Notes: a model not told the origin generated them from the letters alone. Positions 25,601-39,984 are shown, counted from the first letter of the stretch. The stretch is 64,000 nucleotides of DNA from the human T2T-CHM13v2.0 reference genome, Homo sapiens (GCA_009914755.4 CP068257.2:30560001-30624000); one strand, 5' to 3'. Made by a program: numbers and translations.

Positions 25601-27585
25601 CATAACAAAAAGGTCTAACATTCTAAGATGAATTTCTAACACTCTGTGGTGCCATCACCATAAGAAGATGTGGGGGATGTTAGTGGATGTGGTGGACTAA
25701 AGACCTCTAAAACTCCTCTCCTCCATAAAAGCAACAAAAACACTAACCAAAAAAAAGTCAGAATCAAATTTTTCAGAAATTTAGAAATTAACCAAAGGCT
25801 TGCAACAATCTGAGGTGCATTTATTCAGTAACAATGGCTGAATCTTGGTAAAAAAATAGAAAGCTTTGTGGTATTTTAATTTGCCTATTCCCATCCCTTA
25901 CCCGTACCCCCAGATTTGCAGTACTCTGGAAAACCAACAGCCCACAATCGCAGTGAAAAATCTCAAAAACCTAGTCTGACAGCCACTGGAAGGAGAAGAA
26001 CAGTTCTGGAGCCCCCTCAAAGTTCCATTTCCAGAGAACTGTCATCATTCCACCTGTCTACTTTCCTGGAAGACCCCACCAACAATGCTGTCTTTATGTG
26101 ATGTGACTCAGAGCTCTTCCAGTGCAAAAAGCCTTTTCTTCAGAGGATATTTGTCTAAAACAAAGCATCTTGACTGCCTGAGGCAGTAGATAGCAGTTGG
26201 GGCAAATAATAGGCCAACCAAAGAGCTTAAAAGGAAAAGCTGGAGAATGACTTGTTCAAAGAGAGCTTTTAAAAGCTCTGATATATTCCTGTTAATCTAA
26301 AATGCCACATATATGCATAGGACAGTAGGCATGCCCAGAGCTATATCATGCCCAAGAAAGACCTGAGAAGGGCTGGCTGACTTTGAAGCTCTGTGGAAGC
26401 AGGAAGTAAAGGCTAAGGCAGAGTTTTTAACTTCTTGACTGAATGTTAAAGGTGGGCCCCCAATACACATACAGAACCTCTCAGCAAAAATTGGGAGACT
26501 TATTGGTTCCACGTACTTAAGAAATATTTGACTAATTATTAGTGTACCACTAAGCCAAATGAGCAGAGCCTTCAGGGGCCACCTATGACAAAGAAGACAG
26601 ACTTTACATAATTAGTTCAGAAAAATCACTGAACAAACATTTACAAAACAAACAGCAAGAACAAACCCTGGAGAGGGGTGAAGATCTGATTTCCAGAGTT
26701 GTCATATTATATTATGTAAAAATTCCAGTTTTTAATAACAATAAAAAATTATGAGACATACAAAGAAACAAAAAGTATGACCCATACAGGCTGAAAGAAT
26801 CAGTCAAGAAAAACTGTTCCAAAGGAAAAACTAGATATTAGACATACTAGACAAGGACTTTAAACCACCTATTTTAAATATGTTTAAAGAACTGAAGACA
26901 CATCTAAAGAACTAAAGTATGAAAATGATGTTTCACTATATAGAGAATACCAATAAAGAGACAAAAAGAATAAAAACGACCCAAATAGAAATTCTAGAGT
27001 GGAAAGTACAAAAACTGAAATGAAAAAAAATTCACTCAACAGCAGACTTGAGCTGGCAGAAGAAAGAAACAACATACTTGAAAATAAGTTGATTGAGATT
27101 ATTCAGTCTGACTTACAGAAAGAAAAAAGAAGGAAGAAAATTTAACAGAGCATAAAAGACCAACAAATACATAATTGGAATTCCAAAAGTAGTGAAGAGA
27201 GAGAAAGGATCAGAAAGAATAGTTGAAGAAGTAATGGCTGAAAACTTTCCAAATTGGATAAAATACATTTACCCACACATCCAACTAGCTCAACAACCTT
27301 CAGGTAGGATAAACTCAAAGAGACTCACACAGAGACTCATCATGATCCAACTGTCAAAAGATAAAAAGAGAATCTTGAGAGCAGCAAGACAGTAGAGATC
27401 CATCATGTATAAGGGATCCTCAAGAATGTTAACTTTCTCATCAGAATCCATGGAATCGGGAAGGCAAAGGGTGACATATTCAAAATTCTGAAGGAAAAAA
27501 AAACACTATCAACCAATAATTTTACATTCAGCAAAACTATCCTTAAACATGAAGGTGAAATTAAGACATCAAGATAAACAAATAA

Positions 27586-27887
27586 GCTGGGTGCGGTGGC
27601 TCACACCTGTAATCCCAGCACTTTGGGAGGCTGAGGCGGGCGGATCACAAGGTCAGGAGATCGATACCATCCTGGCTAACATGGTGAAATCCCGTCTCTA
27701 CTAAAAATATAAAAAATTAGCCGGGCATGGTGTTGGGCGCCTGTAGTCCCAGCTACTTGGGAGGCTGAGGCAGGAAAATGGCATGAACCCAGGAGGCGGA
27801 GCTTGCAGTGAGCCAAGATCGGGCCACTGCATTCTAGCCTAGGCAACAGAGTGAGACTCCATCTCAAAAAAAAAAAAAAAAAAAAAA
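27586..27887 (+). mobile_element. Alu SINE (AluY-like) inserted in the old L1; TSD gataaacaaataa
   Basis: agctgggtgcggtggctcacacctgtaatcccagcactttgggaggctgaggcgggcggatcacaaggtcaggagatcgataccatcctggctaacatggtgaaatcccgtctctac ... 22-nt poly-A. The 13-bp gataaacaaataa is at both ends. Confidence 0.93.
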
Positions 27888-28488
27888 GATAAACAAATAA
27901 TGAAAGAATCTGTCACTTGCACCTAAACTACAAGAAATACTAAAGGGAATCCTTCCAGCTGAAGTGATAAGACACAAAATAGTAACTCATGAAGAAGCAA
28001 CCACATGAAGAAATAAAAAGCACTGGTGAAGATAACTACGTAGTAAGTATGAAAGACAGAATAAATGTATTCTTCTTTGTGTTTTACTCTTTTTTCTCCA
28101 GATTTAAAAGACAACTGCATGAAGCAATAATTATAAGCCTGTGTTAACAAGTAAACATAATATAAATATGCAATTTGGATAATAAAAGCACAAAGGAGCA
28201 GAGAGGAAATAGAGCTATAATAAAAAGAGTTTTGTATGCCTTTTTAAGTTAGGTTGTTATGAATCCTAGCTTGTCATAAATTAAGATGTTAAATGTAATC
28301 CCTAGGGCAACAAATACGAAAAAACTAAAAAACATACAGTAAAAGAAGGAACAAAGGAACTAAGTTGGTACACTAGAACATGGCTGCTTAACATAAAAGA
28401 AGGGAATAGTGGAGGAATAAAAGAACAAAAAAAGATATAAGACTTACAGAAAACTAATATCGAAATGGTAGAAATAAATCTTATCAGC

Positions 28489-37753: not shown

Positions 37754-38060
37754 TTTTTTTGTTTGTTTGTTTTGTTTTATGAGATGAAGTCTCTCTCTGT
37801 CACCCAGGCTGGAGTGCAGTGGCGCCATCACGGCTCACTGCAACCTCTGCCTCCCAGGTTCAAGTGATTCTCCTGGCTCTGTCTCCTGAGTAGCTGGGAT
37901 TACAGGCATGTGCCACCAGACCTGGCTAATTTTTGTATTTTTAGTTGAGACGGGGTTTCACTATGTTGGTCAGGCTAGTCTTGAACTCTTGACCTAGTGA
38001 TCCGCCCACCTCGGCCTCCCAAAGTGCTGGGATTACAGGCATGAGCCACTGCACCCAGCT
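37754..38060 (-). mobile_element. Alu SINE (AluS-like), minus orientation, inserted in the old L1 ORF2; imperfect roughly 12-bp TSD ttaa(c/t)atcg(t/c)c
   Basis: ttttttgtttgtttgttttgttttatgagatgaagtctctctctgtcacccaggctggagtgcagtggcgccatcacggctcactgcaacctctgcctcccaggttcaagtgattctcctgg...gggattacaggcatgagccactgcacccagc. Confidence 0.9.
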
Positions 38061-39984
38061 ATTAATATCGCCTTTAATAGTGAAAGGCAGTGCTTTCTGC
38101 CTATGATCAGGAATAAGGAAAGTATGTCCCCTCTCTGCATTTCTATTCAACATTTAGTGGGAGATTCTAGCCAGGGCAACAGGCAAGAAAGAGAAATAAA
38201 AGACATCCAGATTGAAAAGGAAGAAGTAAAACTCTCTAGTGGCAGATGGCATCATTTTGCATATAGAAAATCCTAAGGAATACACACACACATGCACACA
38301 CACCCCAACCTATTAGAGCTAATAAACGAGTTCAGCAAGGTTGCAGGATAAAAGATTAATAAACAAAGCTCAATTATATTTTTACACACTACAATGAATA
38401 ATCTGAGAATGAAATTAAAAAGCAATTCCATTTATAATCAAAAAGAATAAAATGCTTAGGAGTAAATTTAACAAAAAAAGTGCAAGGCTCGTACAGTGAA
38501 AATTATAAAATATTGTTGAAAGAAATTAAGGAAGGCTAAATAGATGAAAAGACACAATGTGTTCATAGATTGGAAGACTTAACATTGTTAAGCTGGATTA
38601 TGAAAAAAAATCACCTATATATGCTTCTAGTTTTCATTTTTAAGTATTTAAATCTTTTATTTTCTTTTATTTCAGCACAAGCAATCTAGTTTTTTTTTCC
38701 AAATGGCTGCCACTAATTCTAATGTTATGTATTAAATGTATCTTTTCCTCACTGATTTGAAATACTGCCCTCTAAATTCCCAAAGTATTTCTTAATTACT
38801 ATGTTTCTTAGTCCCTTGGGATTCTTACAAAACCTGTGTTAACTGGATATATGTCAAAAAAACAAATGAGATAAATAAGAGAATGGAAATATTCACCTAA
38901 GGGTAAGTCAGCAGGAAAGTTCTTCAAGGACATAGTCATTTTAACCAAGTGCTATGTCTAAAGTTCAGTTAGATGGTCTGCATCTGCAGCAGGTGCCAGG
39001 CAAACAAGCAAGAGGGCAAGGATCTAGGGCAATCTGGGGTTTTGTGGCCCTCTTACTGTAAAATCCTTCCCATTAGAGTTCTTGGATTTTTGCGAGAGCA
39101 TGGTGGTTTTTAATAAGCGCATAACCGAAAGAAGGCTTTGCACTTCAAAGCCTGTTGTAATTACCCGCTGCATTAGTAAAGTAAGACCAGTTGCAACAAG
39201 AACTTTAAGTGTTTCATGGCATCTCTTTGCAGCAAGACAGCCTTTCTGAAGGTGACTGCAGACAGACATGGTCCCGCATCTTTGCCAAATACAGAATCAA
39301 CTCAGCATCTCACTGACACTAATTATCAGCTTGTGTTTATTCACATCACAGAAAAGAGCTTAATTTACATAATACATATTGGTCAATTCTTTGCTTTTGA
39401 ACTTCACCTTTGCCCATCAGCGGATCAATATGTATTTAATCTTCTGTTTTAGAACTGATTTTAAGACTCACAGTAAGAGGCCCAGATTTCACAATCATTA
39501 ATTGCTATTATCAGCCCCTTTTCATTTCCTAAACATCAGCAATTTCTTAAAGTTCTGCTTTCATTCCTTTATTAAGTTATCCCTTCTTGTTCATCACTTG
39601 GTTCTACTGTGTCTTTCAACAAAGTACAGAGTTTACAACTAGCCAATAATGTAAAACAAAAGAATGCTCTGAAATTTTCCATTGATTCTCCAGTCTATCT
39701 GACCTCATCAACAACTGCATGCAAAACTCAAGTCGTCTGACCATTTCCTGATGGATGCTATCAAGTACTTCCAAAGTTCCAGATAGGTCTGCCAAAGGGT
39801 AGAGGACTCAGATTCTTCCTTTCTCTCTTTTAAATAAGAACTGAATTATCATCTTTGGATGGCTAATTATTCTATATATTACAGTGTAACTGGTTGCTCC
39901 CTAAATTTTCATATTTTCAAGTATATCAAAATATACTATACTCCTGACTAGCATCAGGAGAATCTGCCATTCCTTCATCACCTA

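What the first reader, a model, noticed from the sequence alone, without database searches (positions are those of the whole stretch)
26560..38605. Three-generation nested retrotransposition: Alu within L1PA within an older L1
An old L1 (+ strand) is interrupted exactly at the start of its ORF2 (28847/28848) by a 7.1-kb near-full-length L1PA in the same orientation, bounded by a roughly 14-bp TSD (aaaaatgcattatt / aaaaatgcattttt). The L1PA itself carries two Alus, one at the ORF1/ORF2 junction (31268-31576) and one in the EN domain (32323-32640, perfect 16-bp TSD). The old L1 separately hosts three further Alus (27586, 28489, 37754). The nesting gives an unambiguous relative chronology (old L1, then L1PA, then AluY) and is a clean by-eye example of L1 endonuclease targeting of pre-existing L1 A-rich sequence.
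Basis: partly seen in the sequence, partly recalled or inferred. Interest (0 to 1): 0.55.

Follow-up and report, generated by a model that had tools for sequence, protein, structure and literature searches.

The report
Ordinary nested retrotransposons; mosaic L1PA

Summary
A full-length L1PA (28847/8-35975; 6481 bp without its two Alus) sits in the same orientation inside an older, heavily decayed L1M-type LINE-1. It has an A-tail, a canonical endonuclease site (CTT|AAAAATG) and a 14-nt target-site duplication matching at 13/14. Removing it rejoins the old L1 ORF2 at about codon 33-38. All five Alus are present.

Corrections:
- The break lies about 100 nt into ORF2, not at its start.
- The old L1 does not end at 38605. 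It resumes at 40256 and runs to at least 42590, with two more Alus.
- One Alu inside the L1PA is AluS-like, not AluY.
- The Alu_b duplication is 19/19, not 16.

The L1PA is not of one age. ORF2p residues 1-606 differ from human ORF2p at 118/606 positions and carry every stop and frameshift. Residues 607-1275 differ at 15/669 and are fully open (Fisher p = 1e-25). The switch lies near 33751.

The 3' 2.2 kb therefore comes from a much younger L1PA. The likeliest cause is homology-directed replacement. A single late insertion of a template-switch chimera is the main rival, and it would reverse the proposed chronology.

Nested L1 and Alu insertions number in the tens of thousands in the human genome, so this is ordinary.

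The parts
26560..27585 (+). Old L1M-type LINE-1, piece 1: 5'UTR remnant and most of ORF1 (ORF1-like ATG near 26751). The 5' boundary is not sharply defined.
   Evidence: tblastn against the stitched young-L1 ORF1p covers aa 50-320 at 26599-27629. Pfam PF02994 Transposase_22 scores 28.7 bits, above its cut-off of 22.4, at about 27160-27435.
27586..27885 (+). AluY-like Alu with an A22 tail. Perfect 15-nt target-site duplication AAGATAAACAAATAA at 27571-27585 / 27886-27900.
   Evidence: 0/2000 shuffles reach the score; 8.5% from AluY overall, 3.5% at non-CpG sites. Metazoa_SRP matches on both monomers.
27901..28488 (+). Old L1, piece 2: end of ORF1 and the inter-ORF region.
   Evidence: It lies between pieces that are colinear on L1 ORF1 and ORF2, and the sequence reads as L1 sense strand.
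28489..28749 (+). AluS-like Alu, 5'-truncated (starts at consensus position 35). Duplication AAATAAATCTTATCAGC / AAAAAAATCTTATCAGC matches at 16/17.
   Evidence: 0/2000; 12.0% from AluSx overall, 6.2% at non-CpG sites.
28767..28846 (+). Old L1, piece 3: the first ~36 codons of ORF2 (ITLNINGF...). It includes the 5' copy of the L1PA duplication at 28833-28846.
   Evidence: Alignment to the young-L1 ORF2 start. Duplication statistics.
28847..33750 (+). Old-type 5' part of the L1PA. 5'UTR 28848-30180 (1333 nt), ORF1 30181-31211, ORF2 from 31588 to codon ~606. It contains all 6 ORF2 stops and all 4-5 ORF2 frameshifts.
   Evidence: 118/606 aa differ from human ORF2p. 9.6% nt divergence, with 2/12 CpGs kept.
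31268..31580 (+). Alu_a, AluS-like, in the ORF1/ORF2 spacer of the L1PA. Any duplication is A-rich plus CTAG and is not significant.
   Evidence: 13.8% from AluSx overall, 6.2% at non-CpG sites; duplication not above chance..
32324..32638 (+). Alu_b, AluY-like, at the C-terminal edge of the endonuclease domain (ORF2p aa ~243). Perfect 19-nt duplication AAGAAACTCACTCAAAACC at 32305-32323 / 32639-32657.
   Evidence: 0/2000; 10.6% from AluY overall, 5.2% at non-CpG sites.
33751..35975 (+). Young-type 3' part of the L1PA: ORF2 codons ~607-1275 (open reading frame 33590-35749), 3'UTR and an A11GA9 tail. The switch point lies at 33751, with support interval 33739-33818.
   Evidence: 15/669 aa differ from human ORF2p. 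1.8% nt divergence, with 9/12 CpGs kept. There is a 719-codon open stretch.
35976..35985 (+). GTTTTTCATA: 10 unexplained bases between the A-tail and the 3' duplication copy.
   Evidence: Extending the duplication to cover them does not improve significance (22/2000).
35986..35999 (+). 3' copy of the L1PA target-site duplication, AAAAATGCATTTTT.
36000..37756 (+). Old L1, piece 4: ORF2 aa ~37-637 (endonuclease domain and the first part of the reverse transcriptase).
   Evidence: tblastn and tblastx colinearity.
37757..38061 (-). AluS-like Alu in antisense orientation. Duplication TTAACATCGTCTTT / TTAATATCGCCTTT matches at 12/14.
   Evidence: 18/2000; 11.4% from AluSx overall, 5.2% at non-CpG sites.
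38076..38595 (+). Old L1, piece 5: ORF2 aa 638-816.
38596..40255 (.). 1.66-kb block that is neither L1 nor Alu. It replaces 93 codons (aa 817-909) of the old ORF2 and contains a MIR core fragment at 39990-40039(-). Its identity is unknown.
   Evidence: No Pfam hit in six frames. No terminal inverted repeats. No copy elsewhere in the window, and a MIR match of 86% over 50 nt to a consensus recalled from memory.
40256..42590 (+). Continuation of the old L1. ORF2 aa 910-1273 lies in pieces 40256-40624, 40938-41332, 41620-41808 and 42211-42354, followed by 3'UTR-like sequence. It is interrupted by Alus at 40625-40922 (perfect 15-nt duplication) and 41333-41605 (AluY-like), and by an AT-rich palindromic block at 41772-42260.

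Best explanation
This is an ordinary stack of non-LTR retrotransposon insertions in primate DNA, with one later homology-driven edit.

Shown:
- An old L1M-type LINE-1 lies on the + strand from about 26560 to at least 42590.
- It was nicked by L1 endonuclease at 5'-CTT|AAAAATG-3' inside the A-rich codons ~33-36 of its own ORF2.
- It received a full-length L1PA by target-primed reverse transcription. The evidence is the A-tail, the 14-nt duplication and the same orientation.
- Alus inserted the same way into both elements, six of seven in sense orientation, and most have clear A-rich duplications.
- The present L1PA is a mosaic. Everything 5' of about 33751 is old and decayed. Everything 3' of it comes from a much younger L1PA, close to L1HS/L1PA2-3.

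Inferred (the preferred mechanism):
- An old L1PA inserted here first, at least about 35 Myr ago judging from the AluS inside it.
- It then acquired Alu_a and Alu_b.
- Much later, roughly within the last 10-15 Myr, its 3' 2.2 kb was overwritten by younger L1 sequence without disturbing the flanks.
- This could have happened by ectopic gene conversion from a younger L1. It could also have happened when a new L1 cDNA, primed in the resident A-tail, annealed to the resident element and replaced its 3' end.
For: - ORF homology and full-length extent of the L1PA.
- Duplication and canonical endonuclease site.
- Old-L1 continuity across the insert: ORF2 aa up to ~36 on the left and aa 38 onward on the right. 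ORF1 domain of the old L1.
- Alu identity, subfamily and divergence. Alu duplications.
- Mosaic, protein level: 118/606 against 15/669 aa differences from PDB human ORF2p, Fisher p = 1.2e-25. The last old-type difference is at aa 606 and the next difference of any kind is at aa 705.
- Mosaic, nucleotide level: change point at 33751 (33739-33818), 9.6% against 1.8%, log-likelihood ratio 63.5. CpG retention is 2/12 against 9/12.
- Mosaic, lesions: 6 stops plus 4-5 frameshifts in the first ~590 codons, against none in the last 719.
- Flanks preserved: the matching duplication and the uninterrupted old-L1 reading order argue against a crossover deletion between separated elements.
- Precedent (my own knowledge; papers listed in the reference list of PMC1920257, not read here): double-strand-break repair of a chromosomal LINE by gene conversion from endogenous LINEs (Tremblay et al. 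2000), and chimeric L1s formed during retrotransposition (Gilbert et al. 2002, 2005).
- Background frequency: 21,559 sense L1-in-L1 and 44,751 sense Alu-in-L1 nestings in the human genome (PMC2836564).
Against: - No outgroup or orthologous sequence could be examined, so the order 'old L1PA here first, 3' end replaced later' is inferred and not shown.
It translates to an intact 1275-aa ORF that is nearly identical to the PDB protein. The protein-level result does not depend on it.
- The duplication is only 14 nt with one mismatch, so it cannot date the insertion.
- The young tract runs to within about 20 nt of the A-tail, which is unusual for a simple conversion tract.
- The 10 bases GTTTTTCATA between the tail and the duplication are unexplained by any model.
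- L1 subfamily names could not be assigned because no Repbase or Dfam library was available.
Confidence: 0.6

Rival explanations
1. Single late insertion of a template-switch chimera. ORF2p began reverse transcription on a young, active L1 RNA at this target, copied about 2.2 kb, then switched at a homologous position onto the transcript of an old, dead L1PA from another locus that already carried Alu_a and Alu_b. It then ran to that RNA's 5' end. On this reading the Alus never inserted at this locus, and the L1-in-L1 event is the youngest step, not the middle one.
For: - One event would explain the canonical endonuclease site, the duplication, the A-tail, the complete 5' end and the abrupt switch without any indel.
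- The two duplication copies differ at only 1 of 14 positions, which fits a young insertion at least as well as an old one.
- L1 reverse transcriptase template switching is documented (PMC13174262).
Against: - It needs a 7-kb, Alu-laden, long-dead L1PA transcript to be present in the same particle as an active L1 RNA. That runs against the cis-preference of ORF2p.
- If position 15 (C against T) or the 20-nt extended repeat (17/20) belongs to the duplication, the copies look old rather than young.
- No second copy of the Alu_b junction could be found, although no human genome collection was available to search.
Confidence: 0.2
2. A single-age L1PA inserted once, both Alus came later, and the 5'/3' contrast is only uneven conservation of ORF2 plus chance.
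For: The reverse transcriptase and C-terminal regions of ORF2 are the most conserved among L1 families (general knowledge).
Against: - Post-insertion decay is neutral and should be uniform along the element.
- At the lesion density of the 5' part (about 11 per 1.8 kb), about 13 stops or frameshifts would be expected in the last 2157 nt. None is seen.
- CpGs are kept at 9/12 in the 3' part against 2/12 in the 5' part.
- The step is abrupt, between aa 606 and aa 705, and lies inside the reverse transcriptase domain.
Confidence: 0.03
3. Assembly artefact. Reads from a young L1PA were joined to an old L1PA within the repeat.
For: L1 elements are classic sites of mis-assembly. The switch lies in a stretch where old and young L1PA are highly similar.
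Against: The 3' flank after the young part restores the old L1M at exactly the right codon and carries the matching duplication. A chance mis-join would not do that. The provenance of the window is unknown.
Confidence: 0.04
4. Side issue on the old L1. The pieces 26560-38595 and 40256-42590 are two independent L1M insertions flanking ancestral DNA, not one element.
For: The 1.66-kb block between them holds a MIR fragment, which is an ancient repeat, and is not a recognisable insertion: it has no terminal repeats, no duplication and no coding domain. The second piece begins like a typical 5'-truncated L1.
Against: The two pieces share strand and are colinear, with only 93 codons missing (aa 816 to aa 910). 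They show similar nucleotide identity to the L1PA, 66-72%. A 3'-truncated L1 needs a secondary deletion in any case.
Confidence: 0.15

Closest known systems
Nested transposable-element insertions in the human genome (Levy, Schwartz & Ast 2010, PMC2836564; interruption-based chronology methods such as genome-wide defragmentation, REANNOTATE and TRANScendence)
   Same: A younger L1 and Alus sit inside an older L1, mostly in sense orientation, at A-rich endonuclease sites. The study counts 21,559 sense L1-in-L1 and 44,751 sense Alu-in-L1 cases.
   Different: Nothing in kind. Here the inner L1 is itself a two-age mosaic, which violates the assumption of interruption-based dating that one fragment has one age.
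Conversion of a pre-existing L1 by a younger L1 (Tremblay, Jasin & Chartrand 2000; reports of older L1s partly converted to L1HS-like sequence at their 3' ends, from my own knowledge)
   Same: An old resident L1 keeps its flanks and duplication while an internal-to-3' tract takes the sequence of a younger subfamily.
   Different: The tract here is long (2.2 kb) and reaches the end of the 3'UTR. Conversion was not demonstrated because no outgroup was available.
Chimeric L1s formed during retrotransposition (Gilbert, Lutz-Prigge & Moran 2002; Gilbert et al. 2005; Symer et al. 2002)
   Same: The 3' end derives from a new L1 cDNA and is joined at a homologous position to an endogenous L1 in the same orientation.
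   Different: Cell-culture chimeras usually delete the DNA between the endogenous L1 and the integration site and lack duplications. Here nothing outside the L1 is lost, which requires integration in the resident element's own tail.
L1 recombination-associated deletion (Han et al. 2008)
   Same: It produces a hybrid L1 from two same-orientation elements.
   Different: It would remove the sequence between the two elements and leave mismatched flanks. Here the flanks match and the host L1M continues without loss.
Reverse-transcriptase template-switch chimeras (U6/L1 and others; PMC13174262)
   Same: A single target-primed reverse transcription event produces a sense-oriented composite with a duplication and an endonuclease site.
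   Different: The known cases join L1 to other RNAs at the L1 5' truncation point. An L1-to-old-L1 switch at a homologous position that carries two Alus along would be an unusual instance.

Membership tests
LINE-1 insertion by target-primed reverse transcription (the 7.1-kb element) | Encodes ORF1p and ORF2p (endonuclease, reverse transcriptase, C-terminal domain) in L1 order | tested here: met
   Stitched ORF2p aligns 1-1276 to human ORF2p 1-1275 (E=0). ORF1p aligns to human ORF1p and hits Pfam PF02994, PF17490 and PF17489.
LINE-1 insertion by target-primed reverse transcription (the 7.1-kb element) | 3' poly-A tail and flanking target-site duplication of about 7-20 nt | tested here: met
   A11GA9 tail at 35953-35975. 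14-nt duplication matching at 13/14, reached by 14/2000 shuffles. Caveat: 10 non-A bases separate the tail from the duplication.
LINE-1 insertion by target-primed reverse transcription (the 7.1-kb element) | Target resembles the L1 endonuclease motif 5'-TT/AAAA | tested here: met
   The empty site reads CTT|AAAAATG. The motif is as quoted in PMC5105311.
Single-age L1PA copy (one subfamily, one insertion date) | Uniform divergence and decay along the element | tested here: not met
   118/606 against 15/669 aa differences (p = 1e-25). 9.6% against 1.8% nt divergence. About 11 against 0 disabling lesions. CpGs kept at 2/12 against 9/12.
Named L1 subfamilies (L1PA2-3, L1PA6-10; L1MA, L1MB, L1MC) | Diagnostic positions and best match to a Repbase or Dfam consensus | not testable with these tools
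   No repeat library was available. Khan et al. 2006 is not held. The supplement of PMC9252281 contains no sequences.
Alu (7SL-derived dimeric SINE) | Two 7SL-related monomers, an A-rich linker, an A-tail and a length of about 300 nt | tested here: met
   Metazoa_SRP matches below the gathering score on both monomers of the full-length copies in the scanned stretch. 74-86% identity among about 27 copies in the window. Alignment to published AluY, AluSx and AluJ consensus sequences.
   Alu_b fits AluY best (score 431 against 398). Alu_a fits AluSx best (361 against 350). Finer subfamilies were not available. The label holds for one of the two.
   The left flank ends at ORF2 aa ~36 and the right flank starts at aa 37-38. 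About 11 extra nt remain at the junction relative to the L1PA ORF2, and their origin is unresolved.
L1 gene conversion or cDNA-mediated chimera | Older, unconverted state present at the orthologous locus of an outgroup species | not testable with these tools
   No primate genome collection was available. The exact-protein look-up and the junction scans found nothing.

The most novel reading that the evidence does not exclude
The block 28848-35975 is a natural germline product of L1 reverse transcription interacting with another L1. It could be a cDNA-templated overwrite of a resident element's 3' end that preserved the original duplication. It could also be a template-switch chimera that carried two Alus in from another locus in one step. 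In the second case, 'Alu inside L1 inside L1' would not reflect three successive insertions at this site, and interruption-based dating of transposable elements would be misled here.
Probability: 0.3. Interest if true: 0.3.

Novelty: already known. Interest (0 to 1): 0.13.

Why it matters
It matters little for biology at large. Nested L1 and Alu insertions are among the commonest features of primate genomes and are routinely annotated.

The useful lesson is methodological. A nest that looks clean by eye does not by itself give a chronology, because an L1 can be a patchwork of ages through conversion or chimera formation. A divergence profile along the element, or an outgroup comparison, is needed before layers are dated.

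If the mosaic were traced in other primates, it would add one more documented germline case of L1-L1 sequence exchange.

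Tried and rejected
- The Rfam gathering-threshold scan of 24-44 kb found nothing. Alus appear only below threshold.
- Pfam on six frames of the 1.66-kb block 38596-40255 gave no hit. A repeat search found no terminal inverted repeats or flanking duplications. I noticed a faint similarity to a hAT transposase C-terminus by eye, but no tool supported it, so I dropped it.
- Pfam on three-frame translations of the old L1 recovered only the ORF1 domain. The endonuclease and reverse transcriptase domains were too fragmented. 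Colinearity by tblastn and tblastx was used instead.
- Extending the L1PA duplication to 19-20 nt (TTC-TTAAAAATGCATTATT / TTCATAAAAAATGCATTTTT) did not improve on chance (22/2000 against 14/2000). It would also imply a non-canonical nick site, so the 14-mer was kept.
- Aligning the restored old-L1 junction with zero, one or two duplication copies could not settle whether the 14-mer is original old-L1 sequence. The scores were 128, 125 and 118.
- I tried to name the L1 subfamilies from the literature. Khan et al. 2006 is not held, and the supplement of PMC9252281 has no sequences.
- I tried to find this locus or a paralogous source elsewhere. The exact-protein look-up of the 706-aa ORF and exact scans for the Alu_b junction in genome contigs and metagenome contigs all came back empty.
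- A search for a printed MIR consensus found none. A recalled consensus was used and is flagged as such.
- Crossover deletion between two separated L1s was rejected because the host L1M continues without loss and the duplication copies match.

Full report
**What the window is.** The 64-kb window is primate-type genomic DNA rich in interspersed repeats. A single Alu used as query finds about 27 Alu copies. Several LINE-1 fragments lie on both strands. The finding covers the largest repeat cluster.

**Checking the observation: the inner L1.**
- The element at 28847/28848-35975 is a LINE-1 on the + strand.
- It opens with the sequence typical of L1PA 5' ends, (c)GGGGGCTAGCAAGATGGCCGAATAGG. It has a 1333-nt 5'UTR.
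- ORF1 runs from 30181 to 31211. The spacer between the ORFs carries an Alu. ORF2 runs from 31588 to 35749. A 3'UTR and an A11GA9 tail ending at 35975 follow.
- With the two Alus and one copy of each of their duplications removed, it is 6481 bp. That makes it full-length.
- Both ORFs are broken. After stitching frames, ORF2p aligns 1-1276 to human LINE-1 ORF2p 1-1275 in the PDB (E=0).
- The stitched ORF1p aligns to human ORF1p and hits the three L1 ORF1 Pfam domains.
Only 14 of 2000 shuffles of the downstream 40-mer score as high.
- The empty site reads CTT|AAAAATG. On the bottom strand this is TTTTT/AAG, the canonical L1 endonuclease target (motif as quoted in PMC5105311).
- Two small details were missed. 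One base (C, 28847) lies between the duplication and the G-run. Ten non-A bases, GTTTTTCATA (35976-35985), lie between the A-tail and the 3' duplication copy.

**Checking the observation: the outer L1.**
- Protein-level comparison with the inner element's ORFs shows that the flanks are one decayed L1 in the same orientation.
- ORF1-like sequence lies at 26599-27629. A Pfam Transposase_22 hit there is above its threshold.
- ORF2 residues 38-816 lie at 36012-38595.
- The 80 nt just left of the insert read ...[25 protein letters not shown]. They align to ORF2 codons ~10-36 of the inner element.
- Removing the insert therefore rejoins codon ~36 to codon ~37-38.
- The break is about 95-105 nt into ORF2, not 'exactly at the start'.
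- About 11 nt more than expected remain at the junction. Alignments with zero, one or two duplication copies score similarly. I cannot show from this window alone that the 14-mer is original old-L1 sequence. From memory, L1M ORF2 has an A-run (W-I-K-K-Q codons) exactly there.

**The outer L1 does not end at 38605.**
- After a 1660-bp block that is neither L1 nor Alu (38596-40255), L1 ORF2 resumes colinearly. Residues 910-1035 lie at 40256-40624, 1034-1169 at 40933-41331, 1168-1232 at 41614-41808 and 1226-1273 at 42211-42354. 3'UTR-like sequence follows to at least 42590.
- This part carries two more Alus: 40625-40922 with a perfect 15-nt duplication, and 41333-41605. It also carries an AT-rich palindromic and tandem block at 41772-42260.
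- Ninety-three codons are missing where the 1.66-kb block sits.
- That block has no Pfam domain in any frame, no terminal repeats and no second copy in the window. It holds a 50-nt MIR core (86% to a consensus I recalled; the same consensus finds other MIR-like matches in the window).
- I treat the two L1 parts as one element (same strand, colinear, similar divergence). Two independent L1M insertions remain possible.

**The Alus.**
- In the scanned stretch 27500-32700, the Alus give sub-threshold Rfam matches to metazoan SRP RNA. The full-length copies match on both monomers, and the 5'-truncated copy at 28489 matches on its right monomer only.
- I compared them with published consensus sequences (AluY from PMC8097388; AluSx and AluJ from PMC5218400). 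The results are:

| Alu | Best consensus | Total divergence | Non-CpG divergence |
|---|---|---|---|
| 27586 | AluY-like | 8.5% | 3.5% |
| 28489 (5'-truncated) | AluS-like | 12.0% | 6.2% |
| Alu_a 31268 | AluS-like | 13.8% | 6.2% |
| Alu_b 32324 | AluY-like | 10.6% | 5.2% |
| 37757 (-) | AluS-like | 11.4% | 5.2% |
| 40625 | AluS/J-like | 11-12% | 6.4-6.8% |
| 41333 | AluY-like | 6.7% | 3.8% |

- So 'AluY' holds for only one of the two Alus inside the L1PA.
- Duplications: 15/15 for 27586, 16/17 for 28489, 19/19 (not 16) for Alu_b, 12/14 for 37757, 15/15 for 40625. They are weak or not significant for Alu_a and 41333.
Alu_b lies at ORF2p residue ~243, the C-terminal edge of the endonuclease domain.

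**The unexpected part: the L1PA is a mosaic.**
- In the PDB alignment, the differences from human ORF2p are not spread evenly. Counted in 50-residue bins, they are 4-15 per bin up to residue 600 and 0-3 per bin afterwards.
- That is 118/606 against 15/669 (Fisher p = 1.2e-25). The last difference of the dense 5' run is at residue 606, and the next difference of any kind is at residue 705.
- All six stop codons and all four or five frameshifts of ORF2 lie in the first ~590 codons. The last 719 codons are open. At the 5' lesion density, about 13 lesions would be expected there.
It translates to an intact 1275-aa protein nearly identical to the PDB sequence. I wrote it before I had read this part of the window.
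- Against that reference, divergence is 5.5-13.5% per 200-nt window up to reference position 1800 and mostly 0.5-2.5% afterwards, with 4.0% in the window spanning the switch and in the last 3'UTR window. CpG dinucleotides are kept at 2/12 before and 9/12 after.
- A likelihood change-point falls at window position 33751 (support 33739-33818), with 9.6% against 1.8% and a log-likelihood ratio of 63.5.
- The young tract extends through the whole 3'UTR. That 3'UTR has GAG at the position where, from memory, Ta-subfamily elements have ACA, so it is not Ta-type.
- ORF1p is of the old type, with 14-23% aa differences from human ORF1p.
- Neutral decay after one insertion cannot produce this step. The 5' 4.25 kb and the 3' 2.2 kb therefore have different histories.

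**How it most likely came about.**
- Shown: a target-primed insertion of an L1PA into an older L1, Alu insertions into both, and a two-age inner element with preserved flanks.
- Inferred, model M1 (my preferred reading, about 0.6): an old L1PA inserted here at least about 35 Myr ago. This date uses the 6.2% non-CpG divergence of the AluS inside it and a rate of about 0.17%/Myr, both rough and from my own knowledge. The element then received Alu_a and Alu_b.
- Much later its 3' 2.2 kb was overwritten by sequence of a young L1PA. The 1.8% divergence from an L1HS-like reference suggests roughly the last 10-15 Myr.
- The overwrite could be ectopic gene conversion (as in Tremblay et al. 2000). It could be a new L1 cDNA primed in the resident A-tail that annealed to the resident copy (chimeric L1s of Gilbert et al. 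2002, 2005). It could be a tandem insertion collapsed by single-strand annealing. These references are from my own knowledge and appear in the reference list of PMC1920257.
- Rival model M2 (about 0.2): one late insertion in which the reverse transcriptase started on a young L1 RNA and switched onto the transcript of an old, Alu-bearing L1PA from another locus. Template switching is reviewed in PMC13174262.
- The 14-nt duplication with one mismatch cannot separate the two models. A crossover deletion between separated L1s is excluded because the host L1M loses nothing and the duplication copies match.
- Mis-assembly is unlikely for the same reason, but it cannot be excluded without reads.
- The bases GTTTTTCATA remain unexplained. 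A short 3' transduction from the donor is my best guess.

**Comparison with what is known, and verdict.**
- Nested L1 and Alu insertions are among the commonest structures in the human genome. Levy et al. counted 21,559 sense and 9,899 antisense L1-in-L1 nestings, and 44,751 sense and 20,044 antisense Alu-in-L1 nestings. [quoted passage not shown] This locus shows the same bias, with the L1 and six of seven Alus in sense orientation.
- L1 mosaics arising by conversion, chimera formation or template switching are also documented kinds.
- Nothing here is new in kind, and any standard repeat annotation would show it.
- The added value of this check is corrective. The outer element is about 4 kb longer than reported, one 'AluY' is AluS-like, and the inner L1 is a two-age patchwork. 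The 'unambiguous chronology' is therefore not established.
- Interest is low.

Noticed in passing
window 41772-42260: AT-rich palindromic and tandem block inside the old L1 ORF2. It contains inverted copies of the flanking L1 codons: arms 41772-41850 and 41885-41963 are 80% complementary, and a 21-bp unit repeated 2.8 times at 42148-42205 is an inverted copy of 'aatggaatattattcagcc'. It looks like a microsatellite expansion with a hairpin-mediated inverted duplication.
   Followed up: partly
window 38596-40255: 1.66-kb block that is neither L1 nor Alu, replacing 93 codons of the old L1 ORF2. It has no Pfam domain, no terminal repeats and no other copy in the window. It contains a MIR core fragment at 39990-40039(-). 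Its origin is unknown: a later compound insertion plus deletion, DNA captured at a break, or ancestral DNA between two separate L1s.
   Followed up: partly
window 35976-35985: Ten non-A bases (GTTTTTCATA) lie between the L1PA A-tail and its 3' target-site duplication. This may be a short 3' transduction from the donor of the young 3' part.
   Followed up: partly
window 4345-4587(+), 12384-12735(-), 52809-53864(+): Three further old L1 3'-ORF2 fragments, unrelated to the nest. They show about 70-72% nt identity to the L1PA.
   Followed up: no
window 19815-19942(-), 57959-58020(+), 59603-59677(+): MIR-like segments matching a MIR consensus recalled from memory (73-79% identity).
   Followed up: no
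window 27718-27769, 32458-32509, 31486-31545(-): Sub-threshold Rfam matches to mir-1268 and mir-3135 fall inside Alu right monomers. These are Alu-derived miRNA families, not evidence of miRNA genes here.
   Followed up: no
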